A stretch of 64,000 bases of DNA from Plasmodiophora brassicae (GCA_036867785.1 CP145426.1:124001-188000); one strand, 5' to 3'. Counted from the first letter of the stretch, positions 26,184-29,478 are shown. Translations and numbers: made by a program. The notes: a model not told the origin generated them from the letters alone.

Positions 26184-29100
26184 TCAATTGCTCGACATCT
26201 GCAACGACTGGGGCTGTCGCGATTCCGGGCTGTACTTCTCCAGCGCCGTCGACTCTGTCCCCGGCTTGGTCTTGATGGCACTCGTCATGGTCTTCTCGAC
26301 GTGGCTGCCCTGGAGAACGGCGACGACCTTGGGCGTGAACAAGATGGCCAGCGTTGACGTCAGTGCAAAGAATATGGCAAACGCGGTGGCGACCATTGTT
26401 ACTGCCGGCTGGGCATTGATGAAGCCAATCAGCGGCGTTGCGATCACCTGAACCACCACATTGATGTGCACGTCAGCAGCGTGATCACTGACGAGCCTGT
26501 CGCCCTACCGTTAGGAGCACAGACGTGTAGATGGCCAGCGCGATCTGCTTCGAGTCGTTGAGAGCCTGAATGTGAACGGACGAGCTCCGGAAGGACAGAA
26601 ACGCGCCCGCCATCAACAGACATGCTTTGTAGCCGGCCAGCAGGTACGTGAATATGTACTTGTGTGGGCAGTGGCAGTATGGCGTCTGAGGTTGGATCAG
26701 GCGCGATGACGGCGCATCCGGATCAGGATAGGGCGGCGAGTTCTCCAGCGCCATCCGCATCGGCTCCGCTCCCATCCACATGCCCAGCACGATGGTATCG
26801 ACAGCAAGTAGCCAACCTGGGGCATTAACCTGAACAAGGACTCGATCGGATCACACGGGACTCCACCCTACCCAGGTGAACGAACAGCTGAAAGTCGGTG
26901 ATCTTGACGACCTGCACGTTTTCCTGGCAGAATATCTAGAGCGAACAAAGGACGGTCAGCTGCCAGTCGTACATGAAGCGCGCTCAGACTCTTCGACGTC
27001 TACGCACACGGTACACCCGGTATGTCTTGACGATCAGGCCCCCGTAGCACAGCGTGAATCCGATGCAGAACAGGATGATCTGGGCCTATGCAGACAGGTC
27101 GTCAGCGCACAGTAGCGCTCCAGCGGCCATCGTGCCCAACGTTGCAGTGCGATGCGAACGTCAGCGGGTCGGACGTGTCGAAAGCCATGACCATGGCGGC
27201 GACGTAGCCGAGGATGGCGCCGATCGCAATTACGACGTTGAAGTTTGGCGAGGACATCTGGATATACGTCAGCGACCTGTACCGGACGTTGAACGCGATG
27301 ATGGCAAGGGCGATGGCGATCCCGATGGAGCAGACGATGATGACGGTCCTGGTCGCTGCGCTCGATATGGTCAAGACCTGCTTGACGACCTGCATCGCCG
27401 GGTGCAAAATCGAAACGCCATCACAGGAGATCAGGGACAGCGACGATACGGTCGATGCTGTCGGCGTGTACACCAGACCGTACTCCTTGATGGGCGCCAG
27501 CGACACGGACGAATCCAACAGCCACGAGAGCGTCGTCACCGTCCGCGTCCCGACGTCGCACGACCGCCCCGACAAGAAATCCGTCTTGGCGACCAGAACA
27601 AGAGGGAACTGCAGGCGGTAGCAGGTGGGCGAATCGCGCCCATAGGCGGTACAATTGGCCAAAGCACCCGCGGAGGGCGCCACACGGACACCGTCGTCGA
27701 ATGCGACAGTGGCCAGCGGCACGCTCGTCGACTGCGCAAACTCAAAGTACCCGATCGTGAACGGATTGACGAGGATCGCCGACTGGATCCGCTCCGGCGA
27801 CGACTGGTACGAGGCCGAGCACGGCGTCATCGGTCGTGACGCGTCGCCTTGGAACAGAATCGACGCCAGGTTCCTCGTTGACGGATCGGCCGGGTCGGCG
27901 GGCAGCACGACGACAATGCCATGACTGGGCAGGTTCACGTTGGGGTTCATACCGGCCAGAGCCGGGTCGTTCCAGTTGCAGATCGCCCCCGATAGAATGC
28001 CTCGAATCGTGTCCAGCGACAGCGTTAACGCCGGCACCGATGCGAGGTTGTACCCAAAGACGGTGGCCATGTTGAAGATGGGAACAGACAGGATCTGCTG
28101 TTCGTCCATGGCGATCGATTTGACGACCATCTCGGGGATAATGGCGAACGCCGCCGTCTCATTCTTGACCTGGTGAATGGCGTCGACGTAGGCGGTCGTG
28201 GGGTGGTAGGTCAGGGCGTACGACGTGCTGAGTCGGGTCGGGCCGGAATCGGCGAACGCGTACCCGAAGATGCTGAAGATGGACTTGGCGACGGATACGC
28301 CCAGGCCCATGATCTGCGGACGGGATGCCATCGCCACCTGCTGTGTCGAGTTGCAGGTCACTGACGAGTACATGGTGCACAGGACGCTGGCCTGCGTCTG
28401 CGACGACAGCATGACGAACTCGTACGAGTCCGCCATGCTGGCGACGGCCGGCGACGTGTAGAACCAGATCCAGAAGTTGAACGCCTCCTTCTTCGCCAGG
28501 CAGTCCGTCCCGAATTGCTTCCGGAAGATCAGGTACGTGAACGTGGCGATCGGCCAGGCGCCCGAGGCCGGCGAATCGATCAAGGTGACCATCATGCGCG
28601 CGTCGAACCGGCCGTCCGTCCCCGACACCGCCTGAGCAACCGAGGCCGTGCTCGGCGCGACCGTCTGCCCCGCAACGTTGACGACGTTCGCAATGCTGAC
28701 CCCGACGACCTTCGCCTCGTACATGACGCTATCTGCTCGGCCATACCAATCATTCACGCGTTCGTCCATCTCGAACGCACCATGTACCGACACGAGATCG
28801 TGTAGGGGCGCATGGCGACGTACGAGACGACGCCATCGTTGCCGGACGCCCTGAGCAGGTTGCTGACGTTCCAGTTGATGAGGTCGTCAGCGCCGAACGC
28901 CGATCTCCATCCGGCATCGAACGAGGACAGGGCGCTAGCAAAGACATTCGTTGTACCGCTGCTGTCAGATCGGACGACGACCGTGATCGGCTGACTGGGC
29001 ATAGTCTGTCCCGGGTTTGCCGATGCGATCGCAGGATCGTTCCACATCGTGATGCGGCCCATGAAGATGGCGGGCAGAAGCGATCGTGTCAGGATCAACG

Positions 29101-29478
29101 GCGCGGTCAGCTGGGGAAGGTTGTAGATCGGGACGACCGCCGTGGCGATCGTCGGGAACTTCGGGGCGCCGAGTTACTGACACGGGCGACGTTGAGGCAA
29201 TCCGTATGATCCGTTACCATTTGAAGGTCAGGTGTGGCAGCGTACATGGCATTGGAGATGCCGGAGTCGCTGCAGGCGAAGACGACATCGCCCTGGGCGA
29301 TGGCGGTCTTGGCGGCCCCGGAACCGACACCTTGGTAGGTGATGGTGATATCGGGACGGACGAAGCTGTACAGGGTGGCGGCGTCCTCGTACACCGTTTG
29401 CGGAAGCGTGCCGCCCTTGCCGACAACCTCCAGCGTACATGCCCGATGGATCAACAGCACTCCCAGGATGGCGAGCAT
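26184..29478 (-). CDS. Class C (GABA-B-like) GPCR with tandem PstS-type periplasmic binding domains, multi-exon
   Basis: Signal peptide; PstS motifs GGTLP, GVGSG, SDS, ITMWNDPAIASANP, RSDSSGTT, AWPI; second degenerate PBP (NWNDPALAGMNP); 7TM motifs MSSPNFN, GALIVKTYRVYRIF, LNDSKQI, FTPKV. Confidence 0.88.

What the first reader, a model, noticed from the sequence alone, without database searches (positions are those of the whole stretch)
26184..29478. GPCR with a bacterial PstS-type phosphate-binding ectodomain in tandem: possible phosphate-sensing receptor
Seen: the first PBP domain retains equivalents of the PstS phosphate-contact motifs (GGTLP, GSG, SD, RSDSSGTT). The second keeps the fold motifs (YNL, WNDP..NP) but has lost the RxDxSGT site. 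A GABA-B-like 7TM follows. Known: class C GPCRs normally use a type I PBP Venus flytrap, whereas PstS/DING proteins are type II PBPs. Inference: an independently assembled anion-sensing receptor with one active and one pseudo-binding domain. It could serve spore germination or zoospore chemotaxis toward roots.
Basis: partly seen in the sequence, partly recalled or inferred. Interest (0 to 1): 0.72.

Follow-up and report, generated by a model that had tools for sequence, protein, structure and literature searches.

The report
Clubroot pathogen candidate phosphate-sensing GPCR
The clubroot pathogen has a real surface-receptor gene that joins a phosphate-binding domain with all its contact residues, plus a worn-down second copy, to a GABA-B-type seven-helix domain; the fusion was catalogued earlier as a 'transporter', but it is more likely an untested sensor of outside phosphate.

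Summary
Confirmed: a 7-exon, 977-aa Plasmodiophora brassicae gene, identical to NCBI XXQ39334.1. Five of 6 introns are spliced in public contigs. Order: PstS-like domain 1, degenerate PstS-like domain 2, GABA-B-like 7TM. Domain 1 keeps all 7 PstS phosphate contacts; domain 2 keeps 2 (both Thr to Ser). The 7TM keeps 10 of 14 GABA-B2 residues tied to G-protein coupling, and no PstC/PstA permease was found in the genome, so receptor beats transporter. The fusion is in print: PMC4815078 lists such P. brassicae genes as 'unique phosphate transporters', PMC3251606 a chytrid one, and this scan noted single-PstS versions in fungi and giant viruses. Not found in print: the intact-plus-degenerate pair is an old eukaryotic module. 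It precedes a 7TM in 54 of the 150 best hits (Hondaea, Heterosigma) and elsewhere precedes cyclase, kinase, phosphodiesterase or RGS domains. So it is neither unique nor freshly bacterial, though its joining to this 7TM may be a separate swap (AU p 0.008 and 0.087). Phosphate-sensing GPCR: about 0.62, untested. A germination role is unsupported.

The parts
26184..29478 (-). Whole gene, 7 exons, 977 aa (P. brassicae XXQ39334.1 / SPR01666.1; split as PBRA_008775 + PBRA_008776 in another annotation)
29218..29478 (-). Exon 1 (aa 1-87): hydrophobic signal-peptide-like N-terminus (aa 1-15), then start of PstS-like domain 1 with T24, S53, D71
   Evidence: intron 1 spliced in 1 of 4 runs
28792..29158 (-). 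Exon 2 (aa 88-209), holds R150-T156 of the phosphate site (28952-28972)
   Evidence: intron 2 (28733-28791) not seen spliced, but the database model is identical and a paralog has a 20-codon insertion at the same place
27141..28732 (-). Exon 3 (aa 210-740): end of domain 1, all of domain 2, TM1-TM2
28341..29433 (-). PstS-like domain 1 (aa 16-340), all 7 phosphate-contact residues kept
27396..28328 (-). PstS-like domain 2 (aa 345-655), phosphate site degenerate (S38, D56, R135, S139, G140 equivalents lost; site remnant at 27879-27902); own conserved Cys pair C570/C580
26328..27371 (-). GABA-B-like 7TM (7tm_3, aa 664-930) over exons 3-7; K760/R763 at 27017-27028, L873/D875 at 26554-26562
27008..27085 (-). 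Exon 4 (TM3)
26872..26935 (-). Exon 5 (ICL2 and start of TM4)
26509..26816 (-). Exon 6 (TM4-TM6)
26184..26447 (-). Exon 7 (end of TM6, TM7, and a 42-aa disordered tail with 13 Ser/Thr)
23331..23683 (+). Inverted partial copy (93.3% over 358 nt, one 5-nt gap, stops at its end) of 28349-28706; a non-coding fragment, not a second receptor

Best explanation
A cell-surface G-protein-coupled receptor of the GABA-B-like (7tm_3) type that senses extracellular inorganic phosphate. Shown here: the gene, its splicing, the domain order, the PstS fold, an intact phosphate site in domain 1, a degenerate site in domain 2, and GABA-B2-type coupling residues in the 7TM. Inferred: phosphate closes the two lobes of domain 1, as in PstS. 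Domain 2 sits between domain 1 and TM1 and does not bind phosphate; it acts as a rigid spacer or relay that passes the movement to the 7TM, probably within a dimer as in other class C receptors. The 7TM then switches one of the many G-alpha proteins. If the affinity is PstS-like (about micromolar, recalled), the receptor would be partly empty in soil water and saturated inside a host cell, so it could report phosphate supply or entry into the host (inference only).
For: (1) The 7 phosphate contacts of E. coli PstS (PMC6549937) map to T24, S53, D71, R150, S154, G155, T156. All four P. brassicae paralogs keep them in domain 1 and lose them in domain 2. (2) The AF2 model (pLDDT 87.3) matches PstS structures at target TM 0.89-0.95 and DING proteins at only 0.65-0.68. 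Almost all solved PBP_like_2 proteins bind phosphate (PMC10443332). (3) Of 14 GABA-B2 residues named for activation or Gi coupling in PMC8222003, 10 are identical here, read by hand from the alignment: S515, N520, K574, R577, V578, I581, F582, I592, L686, D688. F568 is Tyr, N584 Gln, M587 Val, K590 Val. K and R are kept in 50 of 52 family members. (4) The genome has many G-alpha matches, no BPD_transp_1 permease match while 14 of 14 control genomes ring, and two ordinary PHO4 phosphate transporters. (5) The same intact-plus-degenerate pair precedes signalling domains in other eukaryotes: RGS, cyclase, kinase plus cyclase, phosphodiesterase. (6) In 56 tandem-7TM proteins, all 7 contacts are kept in domain 1 of 22 and in domain 2 of none.
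Against: No binding or signalling measurement exists. In the same 56 proteins, 34 do not show all 7 contacts in domain 1: 15 have gaps at one or more site columns, and the clade around P0005 has largely lost the site. So the module can carry other ligands. The domain-2 count leans on a profile built from domain 1, and domain 2 is gapped at the T10 column in 45 of 56 rows. How closure of domain 1 would cross domain 2 to reach the 7TM is not modelled (pTM 0.64). Intron 2 was not seen spliced, and no contig spans the whole gene. Phosphate did not trigger spore germination in PMC9980788. G-beta and G-gamma were not searched.
Confidence: 0.62

Rival explanations
1. A receptor, but the physiological ligand is not only phosphate: a related oxyanion or phosphorylated solute at domain 1, or a second ligand at the remodelled cleft of domain 2, making it a two-input sensor.
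For: Two solved PBP_like_2 proteins also bind arsenate or tungstate. Domain 2 has its own conserved features: C570 in 50 and C580 in 51 of 52 rows, and D489 in all four paralogs. One expanded clade has changed the domain-1 site.
Against: Domain 1 here has the full PstS contact set, including the D56 equivalent, which is recalled as the residue that selects phosphate over sulfate. The cleft columns of domain 2 vary widely across the family, with no shared new site.
Confidence: 0.17
2. A phosphate-binding subunit of a heteromeric receptor, like GABA-B1: it binds ligand but signals only through a partner 7TM, such as one of the three C7 paralogs or another 7tm_3 protein.
For: GABA-B works as a mandatory heterodimer (abstract in the search listing). 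The genome has four PstS-type paralogs and 70 7tm_3 matches.
Against: The GABA-B2 coupling residues are largely intact in this chain. All four paralogs keep the site, so there is no obvious split into binder and transducer.
Confidence: 0.11
3. A non-signalling or constitutively active surface protein in which the PstS domain scavenges phosphate for nearby PHO4-type transporters.
For: PHO4 transporters are present. GPR156, a 7TM relative, is constitutively active (abstract in the search listing).
Against: The ionic-lock residues K760 and D875 are intact. The same module is fused to many signalling outputs in other species.
Confidence: 0.05
4. A phosphate transporter, as proposed in PMC4815078: the binding domain delivers phosphate to the 7-helix domain, which carries it across the membrane.
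For: The published reading, based on homology of the binding domain to ABC-importer proteins and on expression during infection.
Against: The membrane domain is a GABA-B-like GPCR fold by sequence and structure with G-protein contact residues kept. No ABC permease partner was found. Ordinary transporters are present. The claim of uniqueness to P. brassicae fails.
Confidence: 0.04
5. Two separate genes, a secreted binding protein and a short 7TM, as in the e3 annotation (PBRA_008775 and PBRA_008776).
For: That annotation exists. No contig spans the whole gene.
Against: Exon 3 holds both binding and TM parts. One spliced 1984-nt contig runs from 28401 to 26175, across the e3 split. Two database models are 977 aa. 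PMC4815078 reports single coding regions from its transcriptome.
Confidence: 0.01

Closest known systems
P. brassicae 7tm_3 + PBP_like_2 'novel putative transporters' (PMC4815078; PbPT3Sc00024_A_2.266_1a/b, PbPT3Sc00024_G_2.43_1, PbPT3Sc00100_Sm_1.225_1)
   Same: Same organism, same fusion, phosphate predicted. The paper has three ids on one scaffold plus one alone; I find three clustered on C7 plus this one. It also notes split annotation in e3. This gene is probably PbPT3Sc00100_Sm_1.225_1 (inferred, not shown).
   Different: The paper reads them as transporters unique to P. brassicae. The sections I read do not examine the binding site or the intact-plus-degenerate pair. I saw the Fig. 3 legend only, not the figure.
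Glutamate-family receptors of early-diverging fungi and protists with type II binding domains (PBP_like_2 in Spizellomyces SPPG_06488; OpuAC, SBP_bac_1, LysR_substrate; PMC3251606, PMC3971589)
   Same: 7tm_3 behind a type II periplasmic-binding domain, read as a receptor.
   Different: Catalogued by Pfam label only; the passages seen give no ligand analysis and no tandem pair. The Calcarisporiella hit has a single PstS domain.
GABA-B receptor subunit 2 (human 6UO8/7EB2; 9JQX)
   Same: Best 7TM match (E 2e-43), with ionic-lock and G-protein contact residues and the TM3-ECL2 Cys pair kept.
   Different: The ectodomain is two PstS-type domains, not an ANF Venus flytrap. The tail is short and disordered.
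Bacterial PstS (E. coli 1IXH, Yersinia 2Z22, Xanthomonas 8ODS)
   Same: Fold and all 7 phosphate contacts in domain 1.
   Different: Fused to a GPCR, duplicated, with Cys residues conserved across the eukaryotic family (C287 and C336 in 50 of 52 rows); no PstC/PstA match in the genome.
Calcium-sensing receptor as a phosphate sensor (PMC6795806, abstract only)
   Same: A class C GPCR (class recalled) that reads extracellular phosphate.
   Different: Phosphate acts there as a non-competitive antagonist at an anion site of a calcium receptor. Here a dedicated PstS-type site is the predicted main ligand pocket.

Membership tests
Class C GPCR, GABA-B-like | 7tm_3 seven-helix domain | tested here: met
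   Pfam E 2.6e-45; seven long helices in the model; GABA-B hits by sequence and structure
Class C GPCR, GABA-B-like | K3.50, R3.53, D6.35 lock and ICL1/TM3/ICL3 G-protein contacts | tested here: met
   10 of 14 GABA-B2 residues identical, read by hand from the alignment against the list
Class C GPCR, GABA-B-like | Type I Venus flytrap (ANF_receptor) ectodomain | tested here: not met
   No ANF_receptor hit; two PBP_like_2 stretches instead. It belongs to the 7tm_3 family, not to the canonical flytrap receptors.
Class C GPCR, GABA-B-like | Obligate dimer and ligand-driven G-protein activation | not testable with these tools
   Needs cell assays. G-alpha genes are present.
PstS phosphate-binding protein (domain 1) | PstS type II binding fold | tested here: met
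   Foldseek target TM 0.89-0.95, rmsd 1.8-2.3 A for the first 15 listed hits
PstS phosphate-binding protein (domain 1) | T10, S38, D56, R135, S139, G140, T141 contacts | tested here: met
   7 of 7
PstS phosphate-binding protein (domain 2) | The same contacts | tested here: not met
   S356, A390, P409, P487, A491, D492, S494: only two Thr-to-Ser matches
PstS phosphate-binding protein (domain 1) | Measured phosphate binding | not testable with these tools
   Needs ITC or a structure
PstSCAB ABC importer component | PstC/PstA permease partners | tested here: not met
   0 BPD_transp_1 matches in the genome, 14 of 14 control genomes positive. The search goes exon by exon, so a very divergent, finely split gene could be missed.
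DING protein | N-terminal DINGGG motif (recalled) and DING fold | tested here: not met
   Motif absent from the translation; target TM to PfluDING 0.65-0.68 against about 0.90 for PstS
Eukaryotic tandem PstS module (defined here) | Intact domain 1, degenerate domain 2, domain-2 Cys pair, one shared duplication | tested here: met
   All 18 domain-2 rows lie on one side of a 100/99 branch; Plasmodiophora-only duplication rejected, p 5.5e-6; C570 in 50 and C580 in 51 of 52 rows

The most novel reading that the evidence does not exclude
Microbial eukaryotes share an old, unrecognised extracellular phosphate-sensing module: an intact PstS domain followed by a pseudo-PstS relay domain. It is plugged into GPCRs, 7TM-like RGS proteins, receptor cyclases, kinases and phosphodiesterases across supergroups. 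In the clubroot lineage it replaced the Venus flytrap of a GABA-B-like receptor, giving four dedicated phosphate GPCRs that tell the parasite its phosphate supply or that it is inside a host cell.
Probability: 0.35. Interest if true: 0.8.

Novelty: new variant of a known kind. Interest (0 to 1): 0.52.

Why it matters
The domain fusion is already catalogued, so the gene itself is no surprise. What is open is its function. A GPCR whose main pocket is a PstS-type phosphate site has not been characterised in the papers I could search. The evidence here moves four clubroot genes from 'unique transporters' to receptors, and it places them in a wide eukaryotic sensor family. The ectodomain is soluble and its site residues are known, so the claim can be tested directly. 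If true, it gives a handle on how free-living and parasitic protists read outside phosphate, and a defined receptor in a crop pathogen whose GPCR pathway is reported to matter for disease (second-hand, PMC9180986).

Tried and rejected
(1) Domain-2 homodimer prediction (aa 345-660, two copies): no verdict, score 0.00 against a mark of 0.42; no evidence either way. (2) No sequencing run is on record as RNA. The three runs with spliced joints are guessed to be RNA, and contigs give no stage or level. Low cover of exons 1-2 is not evidence. (3) The metagenome scan found no real relative: 1 of 59 candidate stretches, a 13-residue match. No Spongospora or Polymyxa protein was named; only 30 proteins were looked up by name, so phytomyxid spread is open. 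(4) The word-index search with exon 3 returned only the protein itself. (5) The gene ids of PMC4815078 were not found in its 11 text supplements; two PDF images were not searchable. (6) The 2019 GPCR genomics paper on this organism (10.1186/s42483-019-0018-6) is not held; it may already discuss these genes. (7) PMC12716839 and PMC13215590 held nothing on this fusion; PMC10445921 names PBP_like_2 only in its abbreviation table. (8) My first site count used a wrong column for D56 (position 72); it was corrected to D71, and only one search is used. (9) The careful 77-row 7TM tree did not finish; one search shows the quick tree. (10) Recent transfer from bacteria was rejected: domain 1 falls in a 26-row, mostly eukaryote-like clade (SH-aLRT 99, quick tree) apart from 19 prokaryote-like PstS rows. 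The prokaryote sample is only top hits, and the labels of unnamed rows are my inference from architecture and N-termini. (11) The C19 PBP_like_2 match is a degenerate single domain with no 7tm_3 nearby. (12) P0088 is labelled Batrachochytrium salamandrivorans but groups with Hondaea sequences; I did not count it as a fungal member.

Full report
Observation. On the minus strand, 29478 to 26184 splices into seven exons with six GT-AG introns of 55-72 nt and one open frame of 977 aa. This model is letter for letter database protein P0001, named XXQ39334.1 of Plasmodiophora brassicae. Another annotation splits it into PBRA_008775 (752 aa) and PBRA_008776 (178 aa). The genome is 25.3 Mb in 20 contigs. 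Of four public runs laid on the region, three (three studies, RNA by the tool's guess) show introns 3-6 spliced at my boundaries, one shows intron 1, and none shows intron 2. The fourth run has no joints and behaves as DNA. One spliced contig runs from 28401 to 26175, covering the end of domain 1, domain 2 and the 7TM. Exon 3 alone holds both binding and membrane parts, so the 'separate genes' refutation fails.

Anatomy. Pfam gives PBP_like_2 twice (E 1.1e-35) and 7tm_3 at 664-930 (E 2.6e-45). Against solved structures, aa 18-323 match PstS (E 5e-40) and aa 677-937 match GABA-B2 (E 2e-43). Domain 2 alone still finds PstS (E 4.5e-7). The AlphaFold2 model from a 52-row alignment has pLDDT 87.3 and pTM 0.64. 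Foldseek ranks PstS structures first (target TM 0.89-0.95), then GABA-B, with DING proteins lower (0.65-0.68).

Binding site. E. coli PstS contacts phosphate through T10, F11 (backbone), S38, D56, R135, S139, G140 and T141 (PMC6549937, passage). Domain 1 has T24, L25, S53, D71, R150, S154, G155 and T156. Domain 2 has S356, V357, A390, P409, P487, A491, D492 and S494. Three paralogs clustered on contig C7 show the same pattern; one is PBRA_005806, 52% identical. A survey of solved solute-binding proteins found that almost all PBP_like_2 members bind phosphate, two also arsenate or tungstate (PMC10443332, passages).

Receptor or transporter. PMC8222003 (passages) names 14 GABA-B2 residues for activation and Gi coupling. 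Read by hand from the alignment (chain offset 40, consistent for all 14), ten are identical here, including the K574-D688 lock (K760, D875), R577, S515 and L686. F568 is Tyr, N584 Gln, M587 Val and K590 Val. The genome has 85 G-alpha exon matches and 70 7tm_3 matches. It has no BPD_transp_1 match while all 14 control genomes have one, and it has two PHO4 transporters and SPX domains. Twelve of 13 SBP_bac_1 matches, in 11 loci, lie 0.3-1.0 kb upstream of a 7tm_3 match, so type II binding domains on GPCRs are a common design in this genome.

Spread. A search of 1.84 billion representative proteins gave 10,761 hits at E up to 0.001; I examined the best 150. With profiles built from P0001, 54 of 150 have two PstS-like domains plus a 7TM, 4 have one, 2 have three, 35 have the pair without this 7TM, and 19 have the 7TM only. 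Of 30 proteins looked up by name, tandem-7TM members include Hondaea fermentalgiana (two) and Heterosigma akashiwo; Calcarisporiella has a single domain; many are unnamed. The pair without 7tm_3 precedes an ANF domain in Rigifila, a weak cyclase match in Euglena, kinase plus cyclase in Fabomonas, a phosphodiesterase in Tetraselmis, and RGS, cyclase or PARP domains in unnamed proteins. Among 56 tandem-7TM proteins (the 54 plus P0001 and P0005), all 7 contacts are kept in domain 1 of 22 and in domain 2 of none; 41 of 56 are complete at all site columns of domain 1. Against this: a large clade has lost the domain-1 site too, P0118 has the order reversed, some non-7TM pairs have two intact sites, and the profile favours domain 1.

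History. Domain 1 falls in one mostly eukaryote-like clade apart from prokaryote-like PstS (SH-aLRT 99, quick tree, 45 rows). All 18 domain-2 rows lie on one side of a 100/99 branch, a Plasmodiophora-only duplication is rejected (AU p 5.5e-6), and a domain-2-specific Cys pair is kept in 50 and 51 of 52 rows. Long branches may pull domain-2 rows together, but the Cys pair is independent of the tree. The 7TM tells another story. The four P. brassicae 7TMs sit among Venus-flytrap-type and other 7TMs, many from the same genome (100/96), away from 17 other PstS-7TM proteins. One origin of all PstS-7TM proteins was rejected under LG+G4 (p 0.008, 41 rows) but not under the mixture model (p 0.087, quick tree, 36 rows after dropping five near-duplicates). 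The 7TM-only rows were chosen for closeness to the query. A separate ectodomain swap in this lineage is favoured, not proven.

Prior knowledge. PMC4815078 (sections 13 and 15 read, Fig. 3 legend only, 11 text supplements searched) reports 7tm_3 fusions with SBP or PBP domains in P. brassicae, calls them a new class of transporters unique to the species, and assigns phosphate to four. This gene is probably one of them (inferred from the 3+1 layout and the split annotation). PMC3251606 (passages) lists PBP_like_2 on a Spizellomyces glutamate-family receptor. PMC3971589 (passages) lists ANF, OpuAC and Bmp. Four full-text searches found no functional study and no account of the intact-plus-degenerate pair. 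The library lacks most subscription papers and the 2019 GPCR paper on this organism. Earlier notes of this scan describe single-PstS versions in two fungi and site-less versions in giant viruses; I did not use them as support.

Biology. The germination idea is weakened. In PMC9980788 (passages, section 2.7, one supplement row) only nitrate salts triggered germination of non-sterile spores with bacteria, and NH4H2PO4 was among the salts tested. The stage of use cannot be told from contigs. [quoted passage not shown] CaSR is a precedent for a GPCR reading phosphate, by a different site (PMC6795806, abstract).

Verdict. The fusion is catalogued but misread in this organism. A phosphate-sensing GPCR is the best reading at about 0.62, with ligand binding, relay through domain 2, dimer state and G-protein output all inferred. 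I file it as a new variant of a known kind, interest 0.52.

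Noticed in passing
window 23331-23683 (+): Inverted 93.3% copy of part of exon 3, with a 5-nt gap and stops at its end. It is covered by RNA-like contigs from both sides: a plus-strand intron at 23661-23713 and a minus-strand intron near 23034-23081. A minus-strand transcript across it would be antisense to the receptor mRNA; contigs cannot show this.
   Followed up: partly
window 29570-29593 (-): A possible extra upstream exon of 8 codons, joined in frame by an 82-nt GT-AG intron (29488-29569), would lengthen the signal peptide. 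No RNA support.
   Followed up: partly
L012:2200-4930 (-), G000 C19 near 65.7-66.1 kb: A degenerate single PstS-like domain followed by a Cys-rich stretch and hydrophobic segments, with no 7tm_3; it resembles the PBP + ephrin-receptor-like + TRP-like proteins P0040, P0136 and P0151.
   Followed up: partly
G000 C4, C6, C10, C11, C13, C17, C19: At least 11 SBP_bac_1 + 7tm_3 loci, more than the four sugar-type fusions listed in PMC4815078.
   Followed up: partly
proteins P0005 and P0009 (unnamed ENA contigs): Closely related tandem PstS ectodomains (sister rows, support 100) end in a 7tm_3 in one protein and in a multi-helix region plus RGS in the other: a possible on/off pair for one G protein.
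   Followed up: no
clade of P0063, P0067, P0077, P0079, P0086, P0090, P0092, P0097, P0100, P0104, P0113, P0114, P0117, P0131, P0132, P0148, P0153, P0164, P0183: An expanded receptor family around P0005 in which the domain-1 phosphate site has diverged in most members, suggesting new ligands on the PstS scaffold.
   Followed up: no
protein P0088 (KAH9250086.1): Labelled Batrachochytrium salamandrivorans but groups with Hondaea sequences in the 7TM trees; possible contamination or transfer.
   Followed up: no
window 24284-25375 (-), 23843-24256 (+), about 11500-19000 (-): Neighbours look unrelated: a TLC-domain gene (Pfam E 7.8e-27), a short coiled-coil-like ORF, and a long helicase gene that I recognise from recall as Brr2-like.
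   Followed up: no
window about 30290-30480: Tandem repeat of roughly 21-23 nt units upstream of the gene (seen).
   Followed up: no
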